From contig JAJRWI010000010.1 in NCBI GenBank assembly GCA_024276825.1, positions 96,001 through 160,000 on the forward strand: DNA of 64,000 nucleotides, read 5' to 3'. This document shows, piece by piece, positions 26,594-50,037 of the stretch. Each line of letters opens with the position of its first letter. Positions within the stretch are counted from its first letter, which is position 1. The notes beneath the pieces were generated by a model that saw only the letters and a list, made by a program, of their open reading frames with translations, made no database searches and was not told where the DNA came from. The stretch comes from an archaeon (GTDB lineage: Archaea; Asgardarchaeota; Thorarchaeia; Thorarchaeales; Thorarchaeaceae). Position numbers and translations under genes: made by a program.

Positions 26594-26599
26594 GCCTGA

Positions 26600-28072
26600 G
26601 TGTCCAATTGGTCGCTTATTTGCAAGAGGACCATTTCTGAAACATTGCGTAAACATGTATATTTCTTGATAGTCCTAGTCTTTGCATCTATCGTATGGAG
26701 CATAGTGTTTCATATTGCAGCCATCGAGTTCATGATGGGGATCAGGCCATTCAGAGCATCATGGACAGGGGTTGGTCAGTTCAATCTCTTTGGATATACA
26801 ATAGATTACTATTTTGAAGGTTGGGCAGACCATGATTATTATTATGTGACATGGGGTCAACAGTTTCTGCAGGGATATGTACCGTATACGACAGGATTTG
26901 ACCACTCTGTAATCAATGGTACAGAGTACTTTACACCATACTTCTTTCCACCCCTGTTTGTGTATTTATGCGCCGTTGGTGAGTTAATATCACCAGTGGG
27001 AATTGGACTGCTAATCACAGTATTTGGATTTCTCACTGCATTTCCAATTTATGGAATAGCAAGCATACTATCAAAACGTAGAGATATTGGGGCAATATCG
27101 GCTGCAACATACCTCTTCAATCCACTGGTCCTCTATCATACCGTGTTTCAATGGCTCAACCCAGCCCCATTTGTATTCTTCATATTCCTTGCATTTTATC
27201 TAATATTTAGAGGGAATAGGCTATCAGGAGCCTTAGTAATGGTCACTGCAGCACTCTTTAAGCAGACAGCGCTATTCATGGCCTTCCCACTTATTGCGAT
27301 TCTAATTAGGGTGAATCTGAAAGAGAGAGAAATTGAACCAGAAACAGTGAGTGAGAAAGATGAAAGGCCTGCAAGTGATAGGATTGACCTCTGGGGATTT
27401 GCAAAGACAAGTCTAGCAGTGATCATCTATGCACTTGCAATCTCAAGCCCATATCTTATCAATCTTGGAAAATACATATCTTCAATCTTTATGCGAATCG
27501 GCGTTGTTGACATTCAAGACTTTACAACAACTCCACCAATCTACAGACCGATTACATTCGCAGTTCCTTTTATTGCATTGGGCTTTCCTGAATGGCTAAC
27601 AAGAACTCTTAATTTCCTCACAGTATCATCCATTGGACTGATTGGGGGTATTCTTCTACTTTTTATCTTAATGTTGTTTGAGATCAAAGATGACAGAAAC
27701 ATCAATGGCTACTGGAGAAAGATGCTGTTTCTGACATTGCTGATGATGCTCTGGTTTCACCTCTGGTCCCCAAGGGGAATTTACAAGTACTATTGCATTT
27801 TGCTAATCCCCTTCTTTTCAATTTTGTCGACATCTAGAATGTGTCAAAAAGAGTGGTTAGACATCAGATTCTCAATAATTATGGTGATTTCACCGATTGT
27901 CTTTGGACTAATGATTCTGGTCCCAGACAGAAATATCTACTTATTGTATGTCTTGATGATATTCCTATTCTATGTGGCTCATACAGGATTGGGAATGATA
28001 TATGGCCGCATAACTTGTAGGTTCAGGTTCCCTAATCTTAGGAGAAGAGTCACTCAGCAGTCAGTTCCTTGA
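26600..28072 (+). CDS. GT-C fold polytopic glycosyltransferase (GT87/PIG-M-like), paralog 2
   Basis: Same motif order as the upstream gene: 'EGWADHDYYY', 'YFFPPL', 'FNP', 'WLNPAPF', 'FKQ', 'PRGIYKYY'. Confidence 0.7.
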   Translation: MSNWSLICKRTISETLRKHVYFLIVLVFASIVWSIVFHIAAIEFMMGIRPFRASWTGVGQFNLFGYTIDYYFEGWADHDYYYVTWGQQFLQGYVPYTTGFDHSVINGTEYFTPYFFPPLFVYLCAVGELISPVGIGLLITVFGFLTAFPIYGIASILSKRRDIGAISAATYLFNPLVLYHTVFQWLNPAPFVFFIFLAFYLIFRGNRLSGALVMVTAALFKQTALFMAFPLIAILIRVNLKEREIEPETVSEKDERPASDRIDLWGFAKTSLAVIIYALAISSPYLINLGKYISSIFMRIGVVDIQDFTTTPPIYRPITFAVPFIALGFPEWLTRTLNFLTVSSIGLIGGILLLFILMLFEIKDDRNINGYWRKMLFLTLLMMLWFHLWSPRGIYKYYCILLIPFFSILSTSRMCQKEWLDIRFSIIMVISPIVFGLMILVPDRNIYLLYVLMIFLFYVAHTGLGMIYGRITCRFRFPNLRRRVTQQSVP

Positions 28073-37630: not shown

Positions 37631-38317
37631 TTATTTGATAAATTGAATAATATTATTGATTATTAGTTGTAATGCTTCTAAGGACTTGCCAACATTGCCA
37701 TCCACTTCTAGACTGTGATCGGCATCTTGGACTCTGACATCCACGCCCTTGGTTGTTTGAACAATCTCATTGAGAGTCTGTTCGTCATAATGAGGATCAT
37801 TGGTGCCAATGATGAACAGAGATGTGGGCTTCTGTCGCTGAATCTGCTTGTACAATATTTCCTGCTTCAGGAGGGGAGTCAGCCAGATGAATTTCTGTTC
37901 ATTAATTCTCGACTTGCTTTCGGTCAAGTGGCCGAGTGCGAGCGTACCAATTGATTTTCCAACAAGCACATCGATATGAATACCAGCGTCAACAGCAGCC
38001 GCATAAATGTTTTCGGCTTCTGAATAAATCACATTGCGACGTTTGTCCCAATTCATCTCAAGAAACTCTGCCCAATCAGAGTAATTGGTTTCAGCAGCAA
38101 GCACGTTATAGCCAAGCTGGATAAGAGCTTTGGTCGTGTAATAAAGCAAAGGCATTCTGCAGTTGTAAGCAAGACCAGGAAAAACAATTGCAGTTTGGGC
38201 GGTTACTCGCTTCTGGCGATAAAGAGTGTTTGATATAGGCCGGTCATTATAACCCCTAATGTCAATAGACGAGTATGTGAAACACATAGTAATCACAGAG
38301 TCTATCATAAGGCTCAT
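37631..38317 (-). CDS. Alpha/beta hydrolase fold protein
   Basis: 'FPG.AY....PLLYY', nucleophile elbow GKSIG, 'IGTND', 'ADHSL' (Ser-Asp-His triad). Confidence 0.85.
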   Translation of the reverse strand: MSLMIDSVITMCFTYSSIDIRGYNDRPISNTLYRQKRVTAQTAIVFPGLAYNCRMPLLYYTTKALIQLGYNVLAAETNYSDWAEFLEMNWDKRRNVIYSEAENIYAAAVDAGIHIDVLVGKSIGTLALGHLTESKSRINEQKFIWLTPLLKQEILYKQIQRQKPTSLFIIGTNDPHYDEQTLNEIVQTTKGVDVRVQDADHSLEVDGNVGKSLEALQLIINNIIQFIK

Positions 38318-38657: not shown

Positions 38658-38787
38658 TCCGGCAAAGGAAGCACATGTCTGGAAGCCCCAGAGATGGCTT
38701 CCACCATATTGATTAGGATGACCTCTCCAAAACGCTCATAACCCACAGCCATCCCAAGGGATGCGTCATAAGAGAGAGGACATTACC

Positions 38788-40146
38788 ATGAACTTCTACA
38801 CTAATGCGGGTGTTGAACCAATAGGAGAGCTGAAAAGAACGCACTTCACTTCTGAGATTACACCTGAGATTGTAGGCAAAAAGGTCACTCTATTCGGATG
38901 GGTTCACATACTCAGGGACAAGGGAAAGATCAAGTTCTTGATACTGCGTGATGAACATGGAACAGTTCAGGTGACAATACCGCAGAAAAAAGTCACAGAG
39001 GTAGTGTTTAGTACTTCAGCCAAATTGAAACCCGAATATGCAATTGCTGTGACTGGTAAGGTTGTAGAGGCCAAGCAAGTCGCCAGTGGCGTCGAGATCA
39101 TCCCCACGATGATCAGAATAATCAATACTGCTGAGAGACTTCCAATTGATGTTGTTGAGGGCAAAGTGGACATTGATCTTGACACACGACTCAATCATAG
39201 GATATTGGACCTTCGCAAGCCAACAATCAATGCAATATTCAGGATTCAACACTCACTGGTCAGATTTGCAAGAGAGTTTCTTGAGAACAGAGATTTCGTG
39301 GAGATTCACACCCCCAAGATTGTGGCGGAGGCCACTGAGGGCGGTGCTAATCTGTTTGAGATAAAATACTTTGAGCGTCGTGCATTTCTGGCCCAGAGCC
39401 CGCAGTTCTACAAACAGCTGATGCTTCTTGCTGGATTTGGAAGAGTCTTTGAAATAGGACCAGTGTTTCGGGCTGAGAAACACAACACCAGACGACACAT
39501 CAATGAGTATACATCATTTGACTTTGAGATGGCATGGATTAACAGTGTAGAAGATGTAATGGACATGGAAGAACGAATGTTACATCACGCATTCAAAAAG
39601 ACCCGCGAGGCCGCTGCCACCGAGTTGGAGTTATTGGGAGTTGATCTGAAGGTGCCGAAGGTGCCTTTTAAGAGGATAAAGTATGCAGAGGTCATAGACC
39701 TTCTTAACGATGCAGGAAAAGAGATCACTATTCATGATGACCTCGACCCCGAGTCAGAGCGACTGCTCGCCGAGATATTCAATGAGAAGTTCAAGTCAGA
39801 CCTCGTCTTTATAACACACTACCCGCTTGAATTGCGTCCAGCATACACGATGCCAAGCCTGACGGAACAGGGAATGACAGAGAGTTTTGATCTGACTTAC
39901 AAGGGCATGGAGATCACAACAGGTGGTCAGAGAATTCATCTCTATGACTTACTTGTCGATCGCTTTAAAGCAAAGGGGTTCAATCCCGATGACTTTGGGT
40001 TTTATCTTAATCCGTTCAAATATGGAGCTCCCCCACATGGGGGTCTCGGGCTGGGTGTCGAGCGATTGACTATGCAACTTCTTGGAATAGAGAATATTCG
40101 AGAGGCCACACTTTTGCCAAGAGACCGCGACAGACTCACACCATAA
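38788..40146 (+). CDS. aspS: Aspartyl-tRNA synthetase, archaeal type (probably non-discriminating)
   Basis: OB fold 'GWVH..RD.G', 'TRL..R..DLR', '[10 protein letters not shown]', 'FRAE.HNTRRH', '[14 protein letters not shown]', 'PRDR.RL.P'. Confidence 0.96.
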
Positions 40147-40183: not shown

Positions 40184-40987
40184 ATGGGAGTCTTAACATA
40201 TCTTCTCAGTGAGAGGAAGGAACACCAAAGGGAAGAACCGATGTACCTGCGAGTCCAATCAGAACTCTACGCATCAATAGCCACACTTGACAGACTGAAG
40301 AAGATGTATAATGTGGGGGTAGTTGACCCAAGGTCTTTTCAGCGAGAGTCTGAGGCCCTGATGATGGACGTGCAGGAACGTATTTCTGAGATGCGCAGGA
40401 TGGGAGTGGATTTCGGATCATTTCTCATGAATGAACGGATCATGGATGCCTTTCCTGATGCTGTGGAGATGCTTGGTATTCGTGGACCCAGTCAGACGCC
40501 TATTCAGAGAGGAATGACCAGAGAAGAGTATTTTGACTATCTGGGGCTCGCAGTCCTTGATGTCGCCACTGCAAATGCCTCCAAGGGACTGATGAGCCTT
40601 GCTGACATGATTGTTGAGGTCTCAAAGCTGTTGCCCCACCTTAAACCAATAAATTACAACGATGTGATAGAGGCAGTTAATATAGTTTCACACCATGGAC
40701 TGATTCCTGGAATAAGAACACTGCAGTGTGGTGTAAAGGTTGTTGAACTGAGACCTCTAGAACTTCGTGGCGATCAGGCAGAGGTTGTCAACCTAGCTGC
40801 GACAAAGGGCTATACAACAGTTGAGGAAGTGATGATAGCACTCAACTGGTCGAAGGATCATGCCACTCAGGTATTGAACAGCCTTGTTGATGCAGGGATG
40901 GCTGTTGCAGATAAGAAGTACTCTACAGGCTTCAAGTATTGGTTCCCTGGCCTTCGAGCAAGAGATAATTCAGACAGAGAAGACTGA
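40184..40987 (+). CDS. ESCRT-II Vps22/Vps36 (EAP30) winged-helix protein with an N-terminal Vps28-N-like domain
   Basis: C-half 'EYFDYLGLAVLDV...GLMSL...DVIEAV...P.EL..DQAEVVNLA..KGY.TV......NWS.......L..LV..GMA..D......YWFPGL' is EAP30. N-half 'SELYASIATLDRLKKMY..G.VD...F......L' is Vps28-N-like. Alternative start at ATG 40241. Confidence 0.85.
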   Translation: MGVLTYLLSERKEHQREEPMYLRVQSELYASIATLDRLKKMYNVGVVDPRSFQRESEALMMDVQERISEMRRMGVDFGSFLMNERIMDAFPDAVEMLGIRGPSQTPIQRGMTREEYFDYLGLAVLDVATANASKGLMSLADMIVEVSKLLPHLKPINYNDVIEAVNIVSHHGLIPGIRTLQCGVKVVELRPLELRGDQAEVVNLAATKGYTTVEEVMIALNWSKDHATQVLNSLVDAGMAVADKKYSTGFKYWFPGLRARDNSDRED

Positions 40988-40988
40988 T

Positions 40989-41666
40989 TCAGACCTTAAG
41001 TCGGATTGCACCCTTCTTCTTATCAACCCATACAGCAAGCTTGTTCTCGACAAGTATGCCAAGGATTTCAAGGAGGTCCTTCTCTGGAAGTGTCGAGAAC
41101 GCAAGCTTGTTGTTCTGTATCACTAGTGACTTCACATCGATGCGAGTGCTACCAGTTTTAAGTGCCCAGCGATATACAATCTGTGCCCATTCCTCAAGGG
41201 GTCTCCAGTGAATCCTCAGTTGCTTTCTATGAGTGCCAATCCATTCTGCCAGCCCTTTGTCGACAAGAATATCTGCTATAATGTTGAACGCCCTAGCCTT
41301 GTCCAAGATCTCTCTGAAGGGTCTGGTTGTGATGAACAGAGACACTGATACAACATGCATATTCATATATTCGGCCCATTCAAGAAGGAAGTCTGCCCAT
41401 TCTTCTGCCCACAATGGTACTGCTTCTTTAGACTCTGGAACATAATACATCCAATGTGCCTGTGAGCTGTCACCCCAAGAGGGTAGAAACGGTCCTAATG
41501 ATGGCTCCTCTTCCATCTTAGATTGTGACTCGTGAACATCATGAACTGCTGCTTGTGCAACCTGAGTTTCATTGATTTCTTCAGTCCTAGCAGTGGGGAG
41601 CGTTCTTGGTCGTTCTGGTTTTGGTTTCGCCTTTGCGCGTCGGCTAATTTTCTCATGAACACTCAT
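40989..41666 (-). CDS. vps25: ESCRT-II subunit Vps25
   Basis: 'W..EW..FLL.W', 'PF', 'LVDKGLAEW', 'IHWRPLEEWAQIVYRWA..TG', 'LPEKDL.EIL.ILV..KLA.W'. Confidence 0.9.
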   Translation of the reverse strand: MSVHEKISRRAKAKPKPERPRTLPTARTEEINETQVAQAAVHDVHESQSKMEEEPSLGPFLPSWGDSSQAHWMYYVPESKEAVPLWAEEWADFLLEWAEYMNMHVVSVSLFITTRPFREILDKARAFNIIADILVDKGLAEWIGTHRKQLRIHWRPLEEWAQIVYRWALKTGSTRIDVKSLVIQNNKLAFSTLPEKDLLEILGILVENKLAVWVDKKKGAIRLKV

Positions 41667-41669
41667 TGG

Positions 41670-42854
41670 TCATGGGCCCTCCATCCATTGGTGATATCTT
41701 CGGACATCATCAGGAGATGCCATAGGGACTATCTTCTTGATTGCCCGTAGGAAGTCGTTCATACTCACAGGACGGACCTTCATCTCACCTTCAGTGCTGC
41801 TCTGACCCATTACTTCTCTTATTGGCCCCATTGCAGCTTCTCGGCAGACTATGCTCAGATCTCTTCCACTATACCATTCAGTTAGTCTGGCCAGTTCGGC
41901 ATAATCAACATCATCAGCGATTTCAACATCAGTCATATGTATACGCAGAATCTCAGCCCTCGCATTCTCATTTGGTAGGGGAACATAGATCTTTCTCTCA
42001 AATCTAGATAGTAATGCAAAATCAATCTCCCATGGAAGGTTTGTTGCTGCCACAAGGGTCACTCGTTCATTAGGAGAACTGTTTAGACCTTGTAGCTCAG
42101 TCAGCAGTTGAGTCTTCATGCGGCGCTCTCCGCCAACATCATCATTGGACCGTGTATTGCCGATGGAGTCAATCTCATCAATGAATATTATGGATGGCTG
42201 GTGTTTGCGGGCGAGCTCGAATAGTTTCATAACGAGACGTTCCGACTCACCAAGCCATTTACTGACTATATTGCCCGCTGAAACATTGAAGAATGTCGCA
42301 TTGATCTCTGATGCCACAGCTTTGACTAACAAGGTCTTTCCGGTACCGGCAGGACCATACAAGAGAATTCCACGCCATGGCTGACGGGCCTTCCCCTTGA
42401 ATAACTCGGGGTGTTTAATTGGAAAGACTATTGCCTCATAGATCGCCTGCTTGGCATCATCGAGCCCTGCGACCTCAGACATCTTGACTCCAGGACGTTC
42501 TCTTATGATTGTGTCTGCGACCATCTCGCTGAGAATTCTATCATCAGAGTCAACAGGAGATGAGTCTTGTTGTGTTGAGTCGGATTGTGACGGCAGAGCA
42601 CTGACCGAAGACTCATTATCCGTGGCAGGTCTTCTGGTTATAGCAATCACCCGCTCAACACATTCCTGTGCCCTATCATAGTATAATTGCCTGACTTTGG
42701 GTAGTGTTGAAACCCGGTAGAGTTTTAGCAGGACCTTGCTAGCGCTGATGTAGAGTCTGCAGGCCTCCTTTCTCAGACCCCTTCTATCAAGATCAATTGC
42801 TTTCTGCAGCAGGTCACGTAGACCTTCTTCTGCGTAATTATTAGGTCCTGCCAT
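41670..42854 (-). CDS. vps4: Vps4 AAA+ ATPase with N-terminal MIT domain
   Basis: MIT 'LQKAIDLD..G....A...Y..A...L'; 'PWRGILLYGPAGTGKT'; pore loop 'SKWLGESE'; DEID; 'RRMKTQLL'; 'ATNLPW'; lies in the ESCRT locus. Confidence 0.95.
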   Translation of the reverse strand: MAGPNNYAEEGLRDLLQKAIDLDRRGLRKEACRLYISASKVLLKLYRVSTLPKVRQLYYDRAQECVERVIAITRRPATDNESSVSALPSQSDSTQQDSSPVDSDDRILSEMVADTIIRERPGVKMSEVAGLDDAKQAIYEAIVFPIKHPELFKGKARQPWRGILLYGPAGTGKTLLVKAVASEINATFFNVSAGNIVSKWLGESERLVMKLFELARKHQPSIIFIDEIDSIGNTRSNDDVGGERRMKTQLLTELQGLNSSPNERVTLVAATNLPWEIDFALLSRFERKIYVPLPNENARAEILRIHMTDVEIADDVDYAELARLTEWYSGRDLSIVCREAAMGPIREVMGQSSTEGEMKVRPVSMNDFLRAIKKIVPMASPDDVRRYHQWMEGP

Positions 42855-43013
42855 TTGAGCTCATACTCATCTCTATCATGCCTAATATTAACCTCTGTAA
42901 CACGAAACCACTAGAATGGCGGCCGCTCCTCATAATGCTTCATGTAATAACCTCATCTATCTTTATGGATCTATCAATGTGATACTCAGGTTTAAACAAT
43001 AGACAGAGAGATT

Positions 43014-43643
43014 ATGCTTGGAACGGTGAGACTCTTGGGCACAATACGCAAGGCCTTTATCTGGGGAAGAAGCAAGCCGAATATCAGTGAGATAAAGAGT
43101 AGATTAAGAATTCTAGTCAGACAGCTTCAAAGGCAAAAGATGAAGCTTGATAATGAGATCTCTGCGATCAAGGCATGTGCTGTGCGTGCCCGCAAGAACG
43201 GTGATATGGAGGCCTTCAGATCATATGCAGAAGAGCTTGTAAGGTTCAGACATCTGGCACTTTCAGTTGACAAATCTAGGCTATATCTGTTAAAGATTCT
43301 CAATCATATCCAGCAGGCTCAGACAACCGCAAAGACCTCATTAGTAATGGGAGAAGTTGGCAAAATACTTGGGATCCTTGGCGATGTGACTGATGTGTCA
43401 AGAGTTGTGGCAAATGTCGATGAGATTGCACGTAGGCTTGAGGAATTTGAGATAGAGAGGGGTATTGCAAGCACATCAATAGACTCGGCTACGAGCAGTA
43501 TTAGGCCAGATGAAGTAGCACGGACGATGGGTGAGATAGAGGCAATTGCAGGCATGTCGTCCGATAAGAGAATGTCAGCTGGTTCAGAAGCCGATTCACT
43601 TGAGGCCACAATAAGAGCTCTTGAACAAGAGCTCGATGTCTAG
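43014..43643 (+). CDS. ESCRT-III subunit, Vps2/24/46 (CHMP1-3/CdvB-like) class
   Basis: Amphipathic N-helix; 'LQRQKMKL....A.K.GDMEA.R.YA.ELVR.R'; acidic C-half; MIM1-like terminal 'DSLEATIRALE'. Confidence 0.88.
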   Translation: MLGTVRLLGTIRKAFIWGRSKPNISEIKSRLRILVRQLQRQKMKLDNEISAIKACAVRARKNGDMEAFRSYAEELVRFRHLALSVDKSRLYLLKILNHIQQAQTTAKTSLVMGEVGKILGILGDVTDVSRVVANVDEIARRLEEFEIERGIASTSIDSATSSIRPDEVARTMGEIEAIAGMSSDKRMSAGSEADSLEATIRALEQELDV

Positions 43644-43663
43644 AGATGAGTTATTGGTGATCT

Positions 43664-45232
43664 TTACCAATTGGAGTATTGGCCATGGGCAGATGCCCCA
43701 TTAATCTGATGACGAAGTTCGTAGAGTTCTCTCATGAGAATCCTGTGCCTTCTGGTGAAGTCTTCAGGAACAAGACGCCCCTCTCTGAACATGCGAACTG
43801 TGTCATCCAGTGCTATCTCAATCTCTGAGAGTTTACGTTGAATCTCTTCAATTCTATTGCTATCGTGATTGAGGTTTCCCATCATGAATCGATCAGAGCC
43901 AGTGGCAAATGTTCTGTCCAACTCCTGTTTGTAGGAGTATGGCGAGTAATCCTGTTGGTTATGCTCCATGAATGGACTTGTGGAATAATGTGGACCATCA
44001 AACATTACAGGATTTGGCGGTGGATATGAATGAGGGGATATTGTCTGAAACCGACCAGATAGTAGAGCATGAACAAGACTATCAATCTTGATTCGAACAT
44101 CCTCAATGTTAACGCTCTTCTGTTCGAGCTTACGCACCCGCTGAAGGTCCGTTTGAACATATCTACTAAAATTGCGTGCGATCTCGACAAAATCAGGCAT
44201 GACTTTCATTGTCTGCTCACTGCAGAGAATCTTGATCATGCCTTGTTTGAACCTCATCACTATGCGTTTTCTGAATCGTCCGTCTTCCTCAAATGATTTG
44301 AAGTATTGAAGTGGAAACTCGAACACAATATCGGTCTTCTTACGTACTCGGCCTGTTTCAGCTATGAATACCAGTCTTCGATTTGTGACGTATAGAGTGC
44401 CAAGTGCTTTATCATTCTTTAGAAAATCACTTCCAACAATGCGTATGTCTGAGAATGCACATACCGGGAGTTCGTTGACTGAGAGCTCGGCATACTCGTA
44501 AAATCCACAGAACTGATTGCGATAATAGTTCAGGCCATCAAGCTGGCGATCGATTTCTGCAATGACCTTTTGAATTGGTTCGATTGTGTCATTAATTGCT
44601 TTCTTGTACTGCTTGCATATCTCACTGACTCTATGAGCCACACCCTCGATGAATGGAAATTGAGAGGGCACCCATTGATTATGATTCATTAACCCCTTAG
44701 TTTCAGCAGCAAGGCGTTTTGCAATGATCTCGACCTGATTACTTATCCTGTTCTTGGCAGCAACAATATTCTCATGGCACTCCTCAATCTTGTCCTCCAG
44801 CCATTTATAGTGCAGAAAGCTTGACATCCTAAGAGAAACCAAGAGCTGCTTTGCAGAGTGAATCCGATTACTTGTTTCACGCAATTTGGTATGACCATAG
44901 TGAATCTCCATGATTGCATGACGCATCTCTTGTGCAAGGTCACGTCGTTTCTCTTCAATCAGTACTATACGGACTGAATGGCAGTTGGGGCAGATGTTGT
45001 CAATACGTTTGCCAGTACTAAGGCGATCTGACCCACACTCGGGGCATGATTCGAAGGTTTCGCCTGGCTCTGGGACTCCTAGGGAATGGTGGCAATTAGT
45101 GCACAAATAATACTCACTGTTTCGCGACTCCAGACAATCCACGCAGAGTATAGTTCCGCAGTCTTCACACATATGTGTGGCCCGGTTCTTATCACATATG
45201 CTGCATCGGGATGAGTTTGGATCAGCTGTCAT
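43664..45232 (-). CDS. Multidomain ESCRT-associated protein: B-box/Zn ribbons, coiled coil, GRAM/GLUE-like PH, Pro-rich linker, steadiness-box-like C-terminus
   Basis: Six CxxC pairs in the first 90 aa; helical region; 'GTLYVTNRRLVF...FPL..F.SFE' PH-like; 'PHSYPPPNP'; 'IALDDTVRMFREGRLVPEDFTRRHRILMRELYELR'. Confidence 0.75.
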   Translation of the reverse strand: MTADPNSSRCSICDKNRATHMCEDCGTILCVDCLESRNSEYYLCTNCHHSLGVPEPGETFESCPECGSDRLSTGKRIDNICPNCHSVRIVLIEEKRRDLAQEMRHAIMEIHYGHTKLRETSNRIHSAKQLLVSLRMSSFLHYKWLEDKIEECHENIVAAKNRISNQVEIIAKRLAAETKGLMNHNQWVPSQFPFIEGVAHRVSEICKQYKKAINDTIEPIQKVIAEIDRQLDGLNYYRNQFCGFYEYAELSVNELPVCAFSDIRIVGSDFLKNDKALGTLYVTNRRLVFIAETGRVRKKTDIVFEFPLQYFKSFEEDGRFRKRIVMRFKQGMIKILCSEQTMKVMPDFVEIARNFSRYVQTDLQRVRKLEQKSVNIEDVRIKIDSLVHALLSGRFQTISPHSYPPPNPVMFDGPHYSTSPFMEHNQQDYSPYSYKQELDRTFATGSDRFMMGNLNHDSNRIEEIQRKLSEIEIALDDTVRMFREGRLVPEDFTRRHRILMRELYELRHQINGASAHGQYSNW

Positions 45233-45386: not shown

Positions 45387-46772
45387 ATGGAAGATCTTAC
45401 ACACGCTGCAATTGAAGCTGCGTTGAAAGTCGGAGTTAGTTTTGTTGACATTCGAATTGAAAACACTGAGTCTACGATCATTGAAATAAGTGATGGGGTG
45501 ACTAAACAGTCAATTGAGTCAAGACTCAAGGGTGCCGGGATTCGAGCCTTTGTTGATGGAGCATGGGCGTTTGCACAGACCACAGACCTGACAATTGAGG
45601 GGATGCGAGCAACTGGGGAGTCTGTTGCAAAGCTTGCAATGGCCACACGAAAACAAGTCCGTGAGAAGTTCGATATTGATGGACCAACATTCAAGGATAA
45701 GGTGCATTTTAGAGTCAGAAAGCATCTGAAGGATGTGCCTTTTGATGACAAGATTGCATTTGCAATGATGATAGACAAGCAGGCACGCGAATATGACAGT
45801 AGAATAGTGAACACACGGACAATCTATGGGGACACATGGACCGAGTTATACATTGCTAATTCGTTGGGCACATCAATCTATATCGAAAACTCACTACCAA
45901 GAATCATCTCGTTCACCACAGCCAAGGATGGAACGAACAGACAAAGAGGATACAGGTCTGTGGGGGTGAGAGGAGGATTTGAGGAGATGGAGAGTGAAAA
46001 GCCCCAGCATATTGGAGAGGAGTCTGCCAAACTTGTGATCAGTCTTCTAGACTCAATAGCTGTGAAGGGCGGTACCTATGATGTCATTATGGATCCTGTT
46101 TTCAATGGCGTCATGGTTCATGAGGCCTTCGGTCATGCATGTGAGGCGGACAACTGGCCAGCCCATACAACAGTTTTGGAGGATAAGATTGGAGAACAGG
46201 TCGGTCCTGAAGAGATGAACCTGAGCGATGACCCCACACTCAAAGGGGAACGTGGCTCATTCGAGTATGATTGGGAGGGGACAAAAACAAGAAAACGCAT
46301 ACTCGTCAAAGACGGGGTCTTGAACGAACTCTTGCATAGTCTAGAAACATCATCAAGGTTGGGCATGGAGCCAAACGGTGCAGCCAGATGTCAGTCTTTC
46401 AAGTTTCCGCCAATACCAAGAATGAGTAACACCTTCATGGAGCCTGGCGACTGGGATGTTGATGAGATGATTCAAGACATGAAAAATGGAATACTGTTAT
46501 GTGACTTTAATTATGGCTATACGGAGCCTTCAAAGGGACAGTTTATGTTTCAGGCAAACTACGGATATCTGATAGAGAATGGCGAGAAGACAAGGATGGT
46601 GAGAGATGTTTCACTCGCAGGTCAGATTCTTGAGGTGCTGCCAAAAATCGATGCAATTGGAAATGACTTCCAGATGGACCCTGGGACCTGTGGCAAGTCG
46701 GGACAAGGAGTACCAGACATGACAGGAGGGCCACATGCAAGGATAAGAAATGTACCAGTAGGAGGAATGTGA
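45387..46772 (+). CDS. tldD: TldD metalloprotease subunit
   Basis: 'G.GIR....GAW.FA', HExxGH 'VHEAFGHACEAD', 'DDPT', 'PRMSNT', 'CGK.GQ'. Confidence 0.93.
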   Translation: MEDLTHAAIEAALKVGVSFVDIRIENTESTIIEISDGVTKQSIESRLKGAGIRAFVDGAWAFAQTTDLTIEGMRATGESVAKLAMATRKQVREKFDIDGPTFKDKVHFRVRKHLKDVPFDDKIAFAMMIDKQAREYDSRIVNTRTIYGDTWTELYIANSLGTSIYIENSLPRIISFTTAKDGTNRQRGYRSVGVRGGFEEMESEKPQHIGEESAKLVISLLDSIAVKGGTYDVIMDPVFNGVMVHEAFGHACEADNWPAHTTVLEDKIGEQVGPEEMNLSDDPTLKGERGSFEYDWEGTKTRKRILVKDGVLNELLHSLETSSRLGMEPNGAARCQSFKFPPIPRMSNTFMEPGDWDVDEMIQDMKNGILLCDFNYGYTEPSKGQFMFQANYGYLIENGEKTRMVRDVSLAGQILEVLPKIDAIGNDFQMDPGTCGKSGQGVPDMTGGPHARIRNVPVGGM

Positions 46773-46773
46773 A

Positions 46774-48123
46774 ATGGAGAATCATCTACTTGAATTAGCC
46801 AACAAGGCACTTAGCACCGCAGAGAAACTTGGTGCACAGCAGGCGGAAGTGTATATTGCATTATCCCGTTCTTTCTCAATAGAGGTTGAAAACAGTTCTA
46901 TTAAAAGCGCCAGCGAAATTAGGGACGGAGGTTGTGGAATTCGCTCAATCATTGATAAAAAGATCGGGTTCGCTTTTGTCACAAATCTGAATGAGAAGGA
47001 CATTCTTGAGATGGCAGAGCGCTCAGTAAGCATTGCAAAATCATCTGTGGCTGACCCAAATTTTGTCACACTACCAAGTGCAAGCTCAAGATATCCCAGT
47101 GTCAAGGGCATTTTTGATCCTGCTATTGATAATATTGAATCGGAAGCAGCAACCAATCTCATTATCCGCACAGTTGAGGCAACAAAGAATGCCACCAAAG
47201 ACTTGAAGACCGCAGTTGAAGCCTCAATTTCAACAAGCACTTCAACAAGGGCGATAGTAAATTCTCTTGGAGTAGAGGGAATCCAGAAGGCCACATCCAT
47301 TGTGCTCTTCAGTTATCCCACAATCAAGACAGACAGCGATCAGAACTCCAGCTTCGAGTTCCAGGTGTCAAGACAATTGAAGACAATAGACCCTGAATGG
47401 GTTGGGACAAACGCTGGAAAGAATGCTGTTGCAAATCTTGGCGGAAATACAATAGAGGGTGGTGACTTGCCAATCATTCTCACACCACTCGCTGTCAGTG
47501 TTGTTCTCGGTTCAGGATTCGGAGGAGCCATTAATGCAGAAGAGGTTCAGCAAGGCCGGTCATATATTTCAGATGCACTTGGCGAAGAGATTGCCAGTCC
47601 CGCATTGCATATCGTTGATGATGGTCTAAGAGAGGGAGGAGTTGGTTCGAGAAACTTTGATGCTGAAGGATTTCCATCGAGAACCACAGAAGTCCTAGAA
47701 GATGGTATATTGAAGAGCTTGCTGCATAATTCATATACTGCCAACAAGGATAAGGTGGAGAACACTGGAAACGCCAGCAGACCGTCATATTCAGGACTGC
47801 CTTCGATATCAACCACAAATATGGTGATAAAGCCAGGCAAGGGGTCACTCGAAGACCTTGTTTCTGAGATTGACAAGGGAGTGCTTGTCAAAAACACATG
47901 GGACCGACCGAACATGACCACTGGTGATCTGAGTGCACTGGTTGCGGAGGGATTCTACATTGAGAATGGCTCGATAGCATTCCCTGTCAAGAGCACGCTT
48001 ATCGGAATAAACATGCGTGATGTTCTCAAGCGCGTCAGTATTGTAGGTGAGGATGTGAGAGTCACAAGCAGCGTAGTATCGCCATCAATTGTGCTAGAAT
48101 CAGCCAGAGTCACTTCGGGCTGA
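46774..48123 (+). CDS. pmbA: PmbA/TldE subunit
   Basis: 'GAQQAEVY', 'FDAEG.P', 'TGNA.R', 'TGD.S'; lacks HExxH; follows tldD. Confidence 0.9.
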   Translation: MENHLLELANKALSTAEKLGAQQAEVYIALSRSFSIEVENSSIKSASEIRDGGCGIRSIIDKKIGFAFVTNLNEKDILEMAERSVSIAKSSVADPNFVTLPSASSRYPSVKGIFDPAIDNIESEAATNLIIRTVEATKNATKDLKTAVEASISTSTSTRAIVNSLGVEGIQKATSIVLFSYPTIKTDSDQNSSFEFQVSRQLKTIDPEWVGTNAGKNAVANLGGNTIEGGDLPIILTPLAVSVVLGSGFGGAINAEEVQQGRSYISDALGEEIASPALHIVDDGLREGGVGSRNFDAEGFPSRTTEVLEDGILKSLLHNSYTANKDKVENTGNASRPSYSGLPSISTTNMVIKPGKGSLEDLVSEIDKGVLVKNTWDRPNMTTGDLSALVAEGFYIENGSIAFPVKSTLIGINMRDVLKRVSIVGEDVRVTSSVVSPSIVLESARVTSG

Positions 48124-50037
48124 TCACATTCTCTCTATAATTGGTACGCCGAGTAGTCGAAGGCCGTTCTCCATCGTCTGCCTGAATGCCTCGACTAGAT
48201 GAACTCGCGCCTTTCTCATCGGCTCATCAGCCTTGAGTATGGGAATTGTTTCGTATAACTTGCTAAACAGGGTGGCCAGTCTATAGCAGTAGGTCGTGAG
48301 CCTGTTAGAGCTAAAGCTGGTTCCCCATGCCTCCTTCTTCAGGCCAATCACAATCTCAAGGACCTCATTTGGAAACCTTGCAATTGCCTTTAGCAATTCA
48401 TATTCAGCATCAGAGGTGAGAACGGAGAGGTCCACATTCTCAGGACTGATCCCACCATCATATTTCTCAAGGATTCTCTTTGCACGTGCAATGGAGTATT
48501 GCAAGTAGGGACCTGCATCGCCATTGAAATCAAGGACCTCATGCCATCTGAAGGTTATCTTTCTATCGGGTGATGCATTTAATAATCGATATCGGACTGC
48601 CCCAATGCCAACACTCTCAGCCACTGCATCCTTGAACTCATCGCTCTCGTCGGGGTTTCTCATCTCGACCTCCTTTCGGGCCAGCTCCCTTGCTCTATCC
48701 AGCACATCATCACAGCTATACCCGACCCATGTGCCCTTTCTTCCTGAAAAACTCTCGTCCTCAAGTCCGACAAACTCGTAAGCAACATGGTGTGAGTTCT
48801 CACTCTCTTTGTGATAGCCCAGCAGGTAAAGAATGGTGTAAATCAACTTTTGAGGATGTGCCTGTGCGGAGCCGATGATATTGAATACTGCATTGAATTT
48901 TCCCCAGTCCTTCTTCTTGCCCTTCAACGATGTTCTGTATACAGGCTTGCCATTTGGCTGGTTCTCAAACACTTCATATAGGAATGGGTCATCGACAATT
49001 CCAAACTTCCACATCTGGAATGCCACATCAGCCCCCGTATAAGTCCTTGTACCATCAGATCTGAACAGGACCTTGTAAGGATCTTTCATGTCCTTGAACT
49101 CTTCAAGGGAGTCAAGCTTGGCAACAATGCAACCAGCCTTCTCGCCCCCCTCAAGTTTGACTATACTATCACAACTTAGGAGAATCTTCTTTACTTTATC
49201 CAGTAGCCCGCTGTGTGCAATTGTACTCTCCCACACCTGAACGTTGTGATATATTCCAAGACGATATGCCGTCTGACACTGAGCCTTCACGCAATTAGTC
49301 ACCATTTCCCTACTGACCGATGACTCCTCTGACTTGAGGTCCTCCAACCTTCTTGACACTTCACGTATCTCGCGTTCCACTTCAGGGTCAGTTTCAAACT
49401 TCTCTTGAACATCGACATAGAGGTGTCCCAAGAAATGGTCGTATTTCTTTCCATTTGGATCAATATCGTCCTTCATCAATTTCCATGTCAGTTGTGCAAT
49501 CTGGAGTCCAAGATCATTGATATAGTCGATCCGAAGAACATCGTATCCAACAGCTTCCAGAATATTGCAGAGTGTGTCACCAATTACTGCATTACGGGTA
49601 TGGCCAATATGCCAAGGCTTTGATGGATTCACAGCAGGAAACTCAACAAGTGCTCGCTTCCCTGCAAATACCCTGGATTTTCCATATTCGGATCTTTTCT
49701 TAAGTACCAGACCAATGACATCACTGGCAAGTCTAGACCTATTGAAGAAGACATTGATGTAAGGCCCCTTGGCCTCCACTCTATCAAACATGGGATTCTG
49801 ACTTGTCATCTCATTGAAACTCGCAGTCAACTCCTCAGCTATGACCTTTGGATTCTTCTTGAGGGTCTTGGCTAGGTTGAAGGCAATTGTTGAGGCCACA
49901 TCACCCAGTTTGAAGTCGGGAGGCGTTTCTAGAGTTGACTTGATAGTTTCTGTTGGCATATCTGCAATCTCAGACATCAGTTCAACCAAGACGGATATGT
50001 ACAGGTCCCATATGCTATCTGATTTGTTGGAGTTCAA
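48124..50037 (-). CDS. argS: Arginyl-tRNA synthetase
   Basis: 'PP....GD', 'GPYIN', 'NPSKPWHIGH.RN', 'RSDGT.TY...D', 'FSGRKG', 'GPYLQY..AR...IL', terminal 'ERM'. Confidence 0.96.
   Translation of the reverse strand: MNSNKSDSIWDLYISVLVELMSEIADMPTETIKSTLETPPDFKLGDVASTIAFNLAKTLKKNPKVIAEELTASFNEMTSQNPMFDRVEAKGPYINVFFNRSRLASDVIGLVLKKRSEYGKSRVFAGKRALVEFPAVNPSKPWHIGHTRNAVIGDTLCNILEAVGYDVLRIDYINDLGLQIAQLTWKLMKDDIDPNGKKYDHFLGHLYVDVQEKFETDPEVEREIREVSRRLEDLKSEESSVSREMVTNCVKAQCQTAYRLGIYHNVQVWESTIAHSGLLDKVKKILLSCDSIVKLEGGEKAGCIVAKLDSLEEFKDMKDPYKVLFRSDGTRTYTGADVAFQMWKFGIVDDPFLYEVFENQPNGKPVYRTSLKGKKKDWGKFNAVFNIIGSAQAHPQKLIYTILYLLGYHKESENSHHVAYEFVGLEDESFSGRKGTWVGYSCDDVLDRARELARKEVEMRNPDESDEFKDAVAESVGIGAVRYRLLNASPDRKITFRWHEVLDFNGDAGPYLQYSIARAKRILEKYDGGISPENVDLSVLTSDAEYELLKAIARFPNEVLEIVIGLKKEAWGTSFSSNRLTTYCYRLATLFSKLYETIPILKADEPMRKARVHLVEAFRQTMENGLRLLGVPIIERM

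What the first reader, a model, noticed from the sequence alone, without database searches (positions are those of the whole stretch)
40184..45232. Rewired five-gene ESCRT locus with no ubiquitin-system genes
Seen: Vps28N-Vps22 fusion (+), Vps25 (-), Vps4 (-), one Vps2/24/46-class ESCRT-III (+) and a B-box/PH/steadiness-box protein (-) are contiguous between aspS and tldD. No ubiquitin, E1/E2, UEV or Vps20/32/60-class gene is present in the window. Known: Asgard ESCRT clusters are described, typically with two ESCRT-III classes and in some lineages ubiquitin genes. Inference: a minimal, possibly ubiquitin-independent ESCRT pathway in which ESCRT-I and -II are covalently linked and membrane targeting comes from a PH domain. 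I cannot verify whether published surveys already report this architecture.
Basis: partly seen in the sequence, partly recalled or inferred. Interest (0 to 1): 0.88.

Follow-up and report, generated by a model that had tools for sequence, protein, structure and literature searches.

The report
Standard Thorarchaeota ESCRT gene cluster
This is the usual, already published five-gene ESCRT membrane-remodelling cluster of Thorarchaeota (a ubiquitin-less Asgard lineage); it is real and well conserved, but it is neither new nor "minimal", because a second ESCRT-III gene lies elsewhere in the genome.

Summary
All five genes are real and lie between aspS and tldD. They are a Vps22 with a Vps28-type N-terminal hairpin (steadiness box, SB), Vps25, Vps4, a Vps2/24/46-class ESCRT-III, and a 522-aa zinc-ribbon / helical / PH / SB protein.

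The genome is a Thorarchaeote, 2.9 Mb and 98% complete. The same order and orientation, flanks included, occurs in 14 of 16 other genus representatives of its family.

The cluster is already published. Hatano et al. 2022 list and tested ThorAB25_08990 (SB), 09000 (ESCRT-IIIA), 09010 (Vps4), 09020 (Vps25) and 09030 (Vps22). Makarova et al. 2024 describe the SB-Vps22 fusion and the Znr_CC_PH_SB family. Both Hatano 2022 and Lu 2023 report that Thorarchaeota lack ubiquitin and UEV-Vps23.

I found no ubiquitin, E2 or UEV in this genome. Ubiquitin matched 0 of 87 Thorarchaeia genomes, against 62 of 66 other Asgard genomes.

The "single ESCRT-III class, minimal pathway" inference fails. A Vps20/32/60-class gene sits on another contig and is found in 79 of 87 class genomes, always unlinked.

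A model of the two SB hairpins binding each other got only weak support.

This scan has reached the same verdict on several other Thorarchaeota genomes.

The parts
38761..40146 (+). Aspartyl-tRNA synthetase. A flank, not part of the system, but its position is conserved.
   Evidence: Pfam tRNA-synt_2 2e-91 plus the anticodon OB domain. It occupies the same position in 15 of 17 related loci of the same family.
40241..40987 (+). SB-Vps22: a Vps28-type N-terminal helical hairpin (steadiness box) joined to the Vps22/EAP30 core, which is one helix plus two winged helices. The ORF opens at 40184; the likely start is M20 at 40241.
   Evidence: EAP30 at 48.8 bits. The family profile hits human SNF8 at 1.5e-19, and its N-terminus hits the yeast Vps28 core at E 0.4-0.8. 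10 of 11 orthologue N-termini hit Pfam VPS28, best E 9e-4. The AF2 model has pLDDT 83, with a hairpin at 20-72 and two wH domains. The top Foldseek hits are Vps22 chains: 3cuq_A at 3e-10 and 1u5t_A. M20 is invariant.
40989..41666 (-). Vps25 (ESCRT-II). It lies downstream of vps4 on the same strand, 3 bp apart, so they are probably one operon. The N-terminal ~60 residues are poorly conserved.
   Evidence: Pfam ESCRT-II at 43.7 bits. It is the only such gene in the genome. Orthologues align from about residue 20-60 onward.
41670..42854 (-). Vps4 AAA ATPase, with MIT, AAA, lid and Vps4_C domains.
   Evidence: Pfam: AAA 1.4e-41, AAA_lid_3, MIT at 28.4 bits, Vps4_C at 25.6 bits.
42855..43034 (.). 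Divergent promoter region between vps4 and the ESCRT-IIIA gene. It holds a conserved BRE/TATA-like block (CGAAGGTTTAAACG in relatives; GGTTTAAAC at 42989-42997 here), a TTAA-rich block about 30-40 nt upstream of vps4, and GGTGA at 43025-43029.
   Evidence: Alignment of 16 orthologous intergenic regions; sequence read. Reading these blocks as promoter elements is inference.
43014..43643 (+). ESCRT-IIIA, of the Vps2/24/46 (CHMP1/2) class. The start is probably TTG at 43035.
   Evidence: Snf7 at 42 bits. Best solved relatives are CHMP1B at 4.6e-7, CHMP1A and CHMP2A. The conserved 'GGTGA..TTGGG' is.
43664..45232 (-). Znr_CC_PH_SB protein (522 aa): three predicted Zn sites, a three-helix stalk, a GRAM/GLUE-like PH domain, a disordered linker and a Vps23/37-type C-terminal hairpin. 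It is the predicted ESCRT-I-like membrane adaptor.
   Evidence: Sequence. AF2 model pLDDT 82. VIA: MTMR2 Z 12.3, Lam6 Z 12.1, EAP45 GLUE Z 10.1; the hairpin matches yeast Vps23 (2p22_A, Z 9.8, rmsd 1.5) and CdvA (Z 10.8). Foldseek hits 2hth_B (GLUE) with TMt 0.60. Among family C-termini, 9 of 17 hit Vps23_core and 7 of 17 hit Mod_r. The family is found in 84 of 87 class genomes.
45387..48123 (+). TldD/PmbA metallopeptidase pair. A flank; the adjacency is conserved but there is no evidence of a functional link.
   Evidence: Pfam PmbA_TldD domains; conserved position.

Best explanation
This is the canonical ESCRT locus of Thorarchaeia.

Shown:
- The five genes encode ESCRT-II (an SB-bearing Vps22 plus Vps25), Vps4, an ESCRT-IIIA (Vps2/24/46 class) and the Asgard-specific Znr_CC_PH_SB protein.
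- The same gene order is the standard of the class.
- An ESCRT-IIIB (Vps20/32/60 class) gene lies elsewhere in the genome.
- No ubiquitin, E2 or UEV is detectable.

Inferred pathway:
1. Znr_CC_PH_SB acts as an ESCRT-I-like upstream adaptor. Its GRAM/GLUE-like PH domain sits on the membrane.
2. Its Vps23/37-type C-terminal hairpin packs against the Vps28-type hairpin carried by Vps22. ESCRT-I-like and ESCRT-II functions are therefore joined without a separate Vps28.
3. Vps22 and Vps25 recruit the unlinked ESCRT-IIIB.
4. ESCRT-IIIB nucleates ESCRT-IIIA polymers on the membrane.
5. Vps4 binds the ESCRT-III tails through its MIT domain and disassembles the polymers, driving scission.

Cargo or site selection would be independent of ubiquitin. 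The selector is unknown; it may be the zinc ribbons.
For: - Family assignments.
- Architecture of the 522-aa protein.
- Vps28-type SB on Vps22. The published HHpred probability is 99 for the SMTZ1-45 orthologue KXH75178 residues 1-70 (Makarova 2024 Table S3).
- Synteny: AspRS>SB-Vps22>Vps25<Vps4<ESCRT-IIIA>Znr_CC_PH_SB<TldD>PmbA>ArgRS< is identical in 14 of 16 other genus representatives of the family and in three further contigs.
- Znr_CC_PH_SB is found in 84 of 87 class genomes, and in 24 of 24 high-quality ones.
- ESCRT-IIIB is found in 79 of 87 class genomes and 24 of 24 high-quality ones, always far from the cluster.
- Ubiquitin (PF00240) matched 0 of 87 genomes in the class against 62 of 66 non-Thor Asgard genomes. 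There is no UQ_con or UEV in this genome.
- Literature: the Hatano 2022 supplement lists ThorAB25_08990|SB, 09000|ESCRT3A, 09010|Vps4, 09020|Vps25 and 09030|Vps22. The visible starts of its SB and Vps22 sequences match my family consensuses by eye.
- The same paper reports Thor Vps22 self-interaction, Vps25-ESCRT-IIIB and Vps4-ESCRT-III interactions in Asgard yeast two-hybrid assays, and no ubiquitin in Thorarchaeota.
- Makarova 2024 predicts that Znr_CC_PH_SB is an ESCRT-I part with a membrane-bound PH domain.
- SB-SB docking model: score 0.41 against a best control of 0.04. That mark was reached by 58 of 80 solved complexes and 2 of 110 mismatched pairs. At 0.60 or under, it was reached by only 7 of those 80 solved complexes and by both mismatches that passed. 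The runs agree in at least 94% of contacts, and the partner's pLDDT is at least 66. This is weak support, and it may reflect likeness to solved ESCRT-I headpieces.
Against: - No experiment bears on this genome.
- The SB assignments rest on sub-threshold Pfam hits (VPS28 13.7 bits against a cut-off of 24.5; Vps23_core and Mod_r E about 2-3e-3 at best) and on helical-hairpin fold matches, which are not specific (note).
- hhalign finds no similarity between the two hairpin profiles (probability 6%).
- The housekeeping flanks (aspS, tldD/pmbA, argS) are as well conserved in position as the ESCRT genes. Synteny within this family alone therefore does not prove functional linkage.
- Lipid binding by the PH domain and the order of assembly are by analogy with eukaryotes.
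- The genome is a draft of 82 contigs, so absences are 'not found'.
Confidence: 0.85

Rival explanations
1. This is a novel, minimal, self-contained ESCRT pathway. It works with a single ESCRT-III class and with ESCRT-I and ESCRT-II covalently linked.
For: Only one Snf7-family gene lies in the window. The SB-Vps22 fusion is real. There are no ubiquitin-system genes.
Against: - A Vps20/32/60-class ESCRT-III is encoded on contig C33 (67 bits to Snf7; best solved relatives Heimdall ESCRT-IIIB and yeast Snf7). It is found in 79 of 87 class genomes.
- The locus is the lineage standard and is already published.
Confidence: 0.03
2. The pathway still sorts tagged cargo, but the tag is a SAMP/Urm1-like beta-grasp modifier instead of ubiquitin. 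It would be recognised by the GLUE-like PH domain or by the zinc ribbons of Znr_CC_PH_SB.
For: - The genome encodes one ThiF-type E1-like enzyme (227 bits) and six ThiS/MoaD-family genes over the cut-off.
- The PH domain resembles the ubiquitin-binding EAP45 GLUE domain (Z 10.1 with 20% identity; TMt 0.60).
Against: - ThiF and ThiS/MoaD genes are general sulfur-carrier genes. Both families ring in most control genomes.
- None is near the cluster.
- The PH domain matches GRAM domains that do not bind ubiquitin (MTMR2, Lam6) better than it matches GLUE.
- There is no direct evidence.
Confidence: 0.07
3. The 522-aa protein is not an ESCRT component. It sits next to ESCRT-IIIA only because gene order in this family is generally frozen, as it is for aspS and tldD.
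For: The housekeeping flanks are conserved just as well. The protein has no Pfam hit at E 0.01. A hairpin fold is not specific.
Against: - The Znr_CC_PH_SB / ESCRT-IIIA pair stays together where the cluster is rearranged: in the inversion in L015, and in the other family, where the cluster is split (L030).
- In Lokiarchaeum GC14_75 the family member lies two genes from a Vps20-type ESCRT-III (Makarova Table S2).
- For the C-terminal hairpins, the two Pfam families matched by the most family members are the ESCRT-I families Vps23_core and Mod_r.
- Hatano 2022 treated the Thor orthologue as the 'SB' ESCRT-I protein and included it in the two-hybrid set.
Confidence: 0.05

Closest known systems
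Thorarchaeota AB_25 ESCRT cluster: ThorAB25_08990 (SB), 09000 (ESCRT-IIIA), 09010 (Vps4), 09020 (Vps25), 09030 (Vps22). Hatano et al. 2022, Nat Commun, PMC9192718.
   Same: The same five genes carry consecutive locus tags in the same order. The visible starts of the published SB and Vps22 sequences match my family consensuses by eye. The lineage is the same, and ubiquitin is reported absent in it.
   Different: A different genome. Identity to the listed family members in public data is about 42-60% for the 522-aa protein, apart from one 88% relative. There is no functional difference that I can see.
Asgard Znr_CC_PH_SB family (asCOG cog.011556) and SB-fused Vps22 (cog.002769). Makarova et al. 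2024, mBio, PMC10936438.
   Same: The 522-aa protein has the described architecture: zinc ribbons, coiled coil, PH, SB. Vps22 carries an N-terminal Vps28-type SB, as listed for the Thor SMTZ1-45 protein KXH75178.
   Different: asCOG profiles are not available here, so membership rests on architecture and lineage and not on a profile score. In Lokiarchaeum the family member lies near a Vps20-type ESCRT-III and is longer; here it is paired with ESCRT-IIIA.
Eukaryotic ESCRT-I / ESCRT-II (Vps23, Vps28, Vps37 and Mvb12; Vps22, Vps36 and two Vps25)
   Same: - The Vps22 and Vps25 cores, Vps4 and the two ESCRT-III classes are homologous.
- Helical-hairpin 'steadiness box' modules of the Vps28 type and the Vps23/37 type are present.
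- A GRAM/GLUE-like PH domain is present, as in Vps36.
   Different: - No UEV, no ubiquitin, and no Vps28 C-terminal domain was found.
- The Vps28-type hairpin is on Vps22 itself.
- The PH domain is on the SB protein and not on a Vps36 paralogue.
- There is a single Vps22/36-like gene.
Crenarchaeal Cdv system (CdvA, CdvB, CdvC)
   Same: It has ESCRT-III plus Vps4 and a membrane-binding adaptor that ends in a helical hairpin. The C-terminal hairpin here superposes on the S. islandicus CdvA structure (9s9g_A; Z 10.8, rmsd 0.8, 70 residues). It also works without ubiquitin.
   Different: Cdv has no Vps22 or Vps25. CdvA lacks the zinc ribbons. The hairpin match is not specific.

Membership tests
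Vps22/EAP30 (ESCRT-II) | Pfam EAP30 over its gathering score, and a helical N-terminus followed by two winged-helix domains | tested here: met
   48.8 bits against a cut-off of 26.8. The family profile hits human SNF8 at 1.5e-19. The model shows two wH domains. The top Foldseek hits are Vps22 chains, ranked above Vps36.
Vps28 (ESCRT-I), as a fusion partner of Vps22 | N-terminal steadiness-box hairpin homologous to the Vps28 core | tested here: inconclusive
   The Pfam VPS28 hit is under its cut-off (13.7 bits against 24.5) and covers profile positions 2-51. It recurs in 10 of 11 orthologues, best E 9e-4. The family profile hits yeast Vps28 core chains at E 0.4-0.8. The model has a hairpin at 20-72. 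The published HHpred probability is 99.
Vps28 (ESCRT-I) | C-terminal four-helix-bundle domain that binds ESCRT-II | tested here: not met
   The match to the VPS28 profile stops near position 55 of 188, and the Vps22 core follows directly. Only the N-terminal module of Vps28 is present. No gene in the genome reaches the VPS28 cut-off.
Vps25 (ESCRT-II) | Pfam ESCRT-II over its gathering score | tested here: met
   43.7 bits against a cut-off of 27. Single copy in the genome.
Vps4 | An N-terminal MIT domain, one AAA domain and the Vps4_C oligomerisation domain | tested here: met
   AAA 1.4e-41. Vps4_C at 25.6 bits, over its 21.3 cut-off. MIT at 28.4 bits, just under its cut-off of 30.
ESCRT-III, Vps2/24/46 class | Snf7-family fold, and closer to CHMP1/2/3 than to Snf7/CHMP4/6 | tested here: met
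   Snf7 at 42 bits. The best solved relatives are CHMP1B, CHMP1A and CHMP2A, and no Snf7/CHMP4 hit is listed. This is a best-hit test only; no tree was built.
ESCRT-III, Vps20/32/60 class (gene on contig C33, outside the window) | Snf7-family fold, and closer to Snf7/Vps20 than to CHMP1/2/3 | tested here: met
   Snf7 at 67 bits. The best solved relatives are Heimdall ESCRT-IIIB (9ftl, 1.6e-9) and yeast Snf7. Best-hit test only.
Asgard Znr_CC_PH_SB (asCOG cog.011556) | Three zinc ribbons | tested here: met
   There are six CxxC pairs in residues 10-84, and ten of the twelve Cys are invariant in 37 sequences. Small beta hairpins appear in the model. Metal binding was not tested.
Asgard Znr_CC_PH_SB (asCOG cog.011556) | A PH domain after a long helical region | tested here: met
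   Helices at 92-246, then a beta sandwich at 256-336 followed by a helix at 339-359. VIA Z is 12.3 (MTMR2 GRAM-PH), 12.1 (Lam6) and 10.1 (EAP45 GLUE). Foldseek hits 2hth_B with TMt 0.60.
Asgard Znr_CC_PH_SB (asCOG cog.011556) | C-terminal steadiness box of the Vps23/37 type | tested here: inconclusive
   A hairpin at 452-521 has pLDDT above 90. It superposes on yeast Vps23 residues 321-385 (Z 9.8, rmsd 1.5), but helical hairpins are not specific. Among family members, 9 of 17 hit Vps23_core and 7 of 17 hit Mod_r, all under the cut-offs; this protein's own C-terminus hits neither. The family profile hits the yeast Vps23 core at E 0.6.
Asgard Znr_CC_PH_SB (asCOG cog.011556) | A score against the asCOG profile itself | not testable with these tools
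   No asCOG library is on hand. The Thor orthologue is labelled 'SB' by Hatano 2022.
B-box zinc finger | Pfam zf-B_box over its cut-off | tested here: inconclusive
   PF00643 is precomputed for three homologues only (P0047, P0054, P0083). This protein gives only ANCHR-like_BBOX at E 1.4. The family profile hits FYVE, RING and B-box chains at E 0.02-0.6.
Eukaryote-type ubiquitin system | Ubiquitin, an E2 (UQ_con) and UEV genes in the genome | tested here: not met
   There is no match at E up to 1 for PF00240, PF00179 or PF05743 in a 98.3%-complete genome. PF00240 matched 0 of 87 genomes in the class against 62 of 66 other Asgard genomes with the same search.

The most novel reading that the evidence does not exclude
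In ubiquitin-less Thorarchaeia, ESCRT-I and ESCRT-II may be one hard-wired assembly. The Vps23/37-type hairpin of Znr_CC_PH_SB would dock directly onto the Vps28-type hairpin built into Vps22. Membrane targeting would come from the GRAM/GLUE-like PH domain. Site or cargo choice would come from the zinc ribbons, with no ubiquitin involved. This would be a working model of a pre-ubiquitin or post-ubiquitin ESCRT upstream module. The parts and the general idea are already in print (Makarova 2024; Hatano 2022). Only the specific SB-SB docking and the ubiquitin-free selector would be new.
Probability: 0.35. Interest if true: 0.5.

Novelty: already known. Interest (0 to 1): 0.22.

Why it matters
Thorarchaeia are the one large Asgard class whose ESCRT machinery apparently runs without ubiquitin. 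That makes them a natural test of how ESCRT-I/II-type upstream modules choose membranes or cargo without a ubiquitin tag. The case itself is already recognised in the literature, and this locus adds only one more well-assembled example. The practical gains here are:
- corrected start codons for two genes;
- the location of the unlinked ESCRT-IIIB gene;
- class-wide counts for synteny and for the missing ubiquitin;
- a weakly supported model for hairpin-hairpin docking that a pull-down could test.

Tried and rejected
1. Standalone Vps28 or Vps28 C-terminal domain in the genome. PF03997 gave only two sub-threshold matches: the Vps22 N-terminus itself, and a 420-aa coiled-coil protein on C56 (P0214, E 0.16). 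Pfam on P0214 gave nothing relevant. Unresolved.

2. Freestanding steadiness-box protein.
- PF09454 hit a 175-aa protein on C78 (P0215) at 25.3 bits, just under the cut-off of 26.8.
- Vps23_core is not among the families that its 24 aligned homologues match most often.
- Its family profile hits only coiled-coil chains in the PDB.
- The ESM Atlas gave unnamed Asgard clusters.
- I do not count it as an ESCRT part.

3. Profile-profile comparison of the two hairpins (Vps22 N-terminus against the Znr_CC_PH_SB C-terminus). hhalign probability was 6%, so there is no detectable homology between them.

4. DH-PH (RhoGEF) likeness of the helices-plus-PH region. Foldseek E-values were about 1e-4, but TM was 0.2-0.3 and rmsd about 19 Å. 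I read this as shared 'helical bundle then PH' topology, not as a DH domain.

5. ThiF, ThiS and MoaD genes as a hidden ubiquitin-like system. They are present but generic and unlinked. I keep this only as a low-probability rival.

6. The cluster in the class genome G058 (77% complete). No Vps4 orthologue was found, and Vps22 similarity is confined to part of a 746-aa frame. I cannot tell loss from assembly error.

Full report
**What is there**

The window is G000:C81:96001-160000 of a 2.94-Mb genome in 82 contigs, 98.3% complete. Close homologues of its proteins are labelled Thorarchaeota.

Pfam assigns them as follows:
- 40184-40987 (+): EAP30/Vps22, 48.8 bits.
- 40989-41666 (-): ESCRT-II/Vps25, 43.7 bits.
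- 41670-42854 (-): Vps4, with AAA, lid and Vps4_C over their cut-offs and MIT just under its own.
- 43014-43643 (+): Snf7 family, 42 bits.
- 43664-45232 (-): a 522-aa protein with no Pfam hit at E 0.01.

**The two unusual proteins**

*Vps22.*
- The profile of 16 orthologues matches human SNF8 at 1.5e-19 over its C-terminal two thirds. Its N-terminus matches the yeast Vps28 core chains of the ESCRT-I headpiece structures at E 0.4-0.8.
- Taken singly, 10 of 11 orthologue N-termini hit Pfam VPS28 (best E 9e-4), always at profile positions 2 to about 55.
- The AF2 model (pLDDT 83) shows a helical hairpin at residues 20-72, then short helices and a short disordered linker, then a helix and two winged helices. 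Its best fold matches are Vps22 chains.
- The protein is therefore a Vps28-N (steadiness box) plus Vps22 fusion that lacks the Vps28 C-terminal domain.
- M20 is invariant and the 19 residues before it are not conserved, so the gene probably starts at 40241.

*The 522-aa protein.*
- It has six CxxC pairs in residues 10-84.
- The model (pLDDT 82) shows three long helices at 92-246, a beta sandwich plus helix at 256-359, a disordered linker at about 396-455 and a confident hairpin at 452-521.
- The sandwich is a GRAM-type PH fold: MTMR2 Z 12.3, Lam6 Z 12.1, EAP45 GLUE Z 10.1 with 20% identity. Foldseek gives TMt 0.60 to the GLUE domain 2hth_B.
- The hairpin superposes on yeast Vps23 residues 321-385 (Z 9.8, rmsd 1.5) and on CdvA (Z 10.8). 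Such matches are not specific for helical hairpins.
- Among 17 family C-termini, the two most frequent Pfam hits are the ESCRT-I families Vps23_core (9 members) and Mod_r/Vps37 (7 members), all under the cut-offs.

**The rest of the genome**

The in-cluster ESCRT-III is closest to CHMP1B, CHMP1A and CHMP2A, so it belongs to the Vps2/24/46 class as stated.

A second Snf7-family gene (217 aa, 67 bits) lies on contig C33 between unrelated genes. Its best solved relatives are Heimdall ESCRT-IIIB and yeast Snf7. The genome therefore has both ESCRT-III classes, and the pathway is not "minimal".

Other whole-genome searches gave:
- one EAP30 gene and one Vps25 gene over the cut-offs;
- no match to ubiquitin, UQ_con or UEV at E up to 1;
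- no gene reaching the VPS28 cut-off;
- one generic ThiF-type E1-like gene and six ThiS/MoaD genes.

**Relatives**

The 522-aa family is found in 84 of 87 genomes of the class, including all 24 high-quality ones.

I fetched 20-kb stretches from one to two genomes per genus and located the window's proteins in them.
- The order AspRS, SB-Vps22, Vps25, Vps4, ESCRT-IIIA, Znr_CC_PH_SB, TldD, PmbA, ArgRS, with the same orientations, is intact in 14 of the 16 other genus representatives of the family.
- One locus has the ESCRT-IIIA / Znr_CC_PH_SB / TldD / PmbA block inverted.
- One locus lacks the Vps4 side.
- In the single genome of the second family, the cluster is split into SB-Vps22...Vps4 on one contig and ESCRT-IIIA plus Znr_CC_PH_SB on another.
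- Three further public contigs show the same order.

ESCRT-IIIB is found in 79 of 87 class genomes, always far from the cluster.

Ubiquitin (PF00240) matched 0 of 87 class genomes. The same search matched 62 of 66 non-Thor Asgard genomes, so the search is able to find Asgard ubiquitins.

One caution: the housekeeping flanks are conserved as well as the ESCRT genes. Within this family, synteny alone therefore does not prove function. The better argument is that the ESCRT-IIIA / adaptor pair persists where the cluster is rearranged.

**Literature**

- Hatano et al. 2022 (PMC9192718) analysed 30 Thorarchaeota genomes. They state that Thorarchaeota "seemingly lack true ubiquitin homologues".
- Their supplement lists ThorAB25_08990|SB, 09000|ESCRT3A, 09010|Vps4, 09020|Vps25 and 09030|Vps22 for the two-hybrid work. 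The visible starts of the SB and Vps22 sequences match my family consensuses by eye.
- Makarova et al. 2024 (PMC10936438) state that Asgard Vps22 is fused to an SB. They list Thor SMTZ1-45 KXH75178 residues 1-70 as a Vps28 N-terminal SB with probability 99.
- The same paper defines the Znr_CC_PH_SB family as a likely ancestral ESCRT-I part with a membrane-associated PH domain. Its tables give KXH75180 as Vps4, KXH75181 as ESCRT-III, and a second ESCRT-III (KXH70284) elsewhere in that genome.
- Lu et al. [quoted passage not shown]

**Mechanism**

The genes and their families are shown. The steps below are inferred.
1. Znr_CC_PH_SB binds the membrane through its PH domain.
2. Its Vps23/37-type hairpin pairs with the Vps28-type hairpin on Vps22.
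3. Vps22 and Vps25 recruit ESCRT-IIIB.
4. ESCRT-IIIB nucleates ESCRT-IIIA.
5. Vps4 disassembles the polymer.

I tested the hairpin pairing by complex prediction.
- The score was 0.41 against a best control of 0.04.
- That mark was reached by 58 of 80 solved complexes and 2 of 110 mismatched pairs.
- At 0.60 or under, it was reached by only 7 of those 80 solved complexes and by both mismatches that passed.
- The runs agree in at least 94% of contacts, and the partner's pLDDT is at least 66.
- This is weak support, and it may reflect likeness to solved ESCRT-I headpieces.

hhalign sees no homology between the two hairpins.

**Smaller points**

The vps4 / ESCRT-IIIA intergenic region carries a conserved BRE/TATA-like block (CGAAGGTTTAAACG in relatives; GGTTTAAAC at 42989-42997 here). 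A conserved GGTGA is followed five bases later by TTG-GG. This suggests that ESCRT-IIIA starts at TTG 43035 and not at ATG 43014.

**Verdict**

The locus is the known Thorarchaeial ESCRT cluster. Earlier follow-ups in this scan reached the same verdict on other Thorarchaeota genomes. I reached the two key papers independently, took the AB_25 locus-tag lead from those notes, and checked it myself.

Noticed in passing
G000:C33:67178-67828 (-) (L001:1381-2034:-): Unlinked ESCRT-IIIB (Vps20/32/60-class) gene of 217 aa, lying between a HAD-type hydrolase-like gene and a thioredoxin-like membrane protein gene. It has a Pro-rich stretch (IPSPSHPSPP) before the C-terminal helix; I read this from memory as a possible MIM2-like Vps4-binding motif and did not test it.
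   Followed up: partly
window 42985-43037: A conserved BRE/TATA-like block upstream of ESCRT-IIIA, and a conserved GGTGA followed by TTG-GG. The gene probably starts at TTG 43035 and not at ATG 43014, giving an N-terminus of MG...
   Followed up: partly
window 28050-29216 (-): A 388-aa protein with an IFT52 GIFT domain (Pfam E 1.2e-15) and a long coiled-coil tail. It has no Pfam-annotated neighbours of related function.
   Followed up: no
G000:C78:7980-8507 (+) (L035:4981-5508:+, P0215): A 175-aa helical protein conserved across Thorarchaeota. It scores 25.3 bits on Vps23_core (cut-off 26.8), but Vps23_core is not among the families its 24 aligned homologues match most often. It lies near a HerA-like ATPase that has a long Lys/Glu/Arg-rich insert. 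Whether it is a small SB protein is unresolved.
   Followed up: partly
G000:C56:22671-23933 (-) (L005:841-2103:-, P0214): A 420-aa all-helical protein with a weak VPS28 profile match that covers the C-terminal part of the profile (E 0.16). It lies about 10 kb from the genome's only ThiF-type E1-like gene, which carries a TBP-like C-terminal domain.
   Followed up: partly
G001:C21:21396-21869 and G058:C1:2157673-2158041: Two related Thorarchaeia genomes have 746-810-aa open frames that contain an EAP30/Vps22-like part. These may be larger multidomain Vps22 paralogues. This genome has none.
   Followed up: no
window 45387-50037: The TldD/PmbA pair and ArgRS sit next to the ESCRT cluster in most of the class representatives sampled. 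In one genome they travel with ESCRT-IIIA and the adaptor gene in an inversion. There is no evident functional link.
   Followed up: partly
window 25043-28072, 33250-35186 and 37631-38317: Five ORFs of 228-516 aa have no Pfam hit at E 0.001. Matches to the 228-aa one (37631-38317) appear upstream of aspS in only 3 of 17 related loci of the same family.
   Followed up: no
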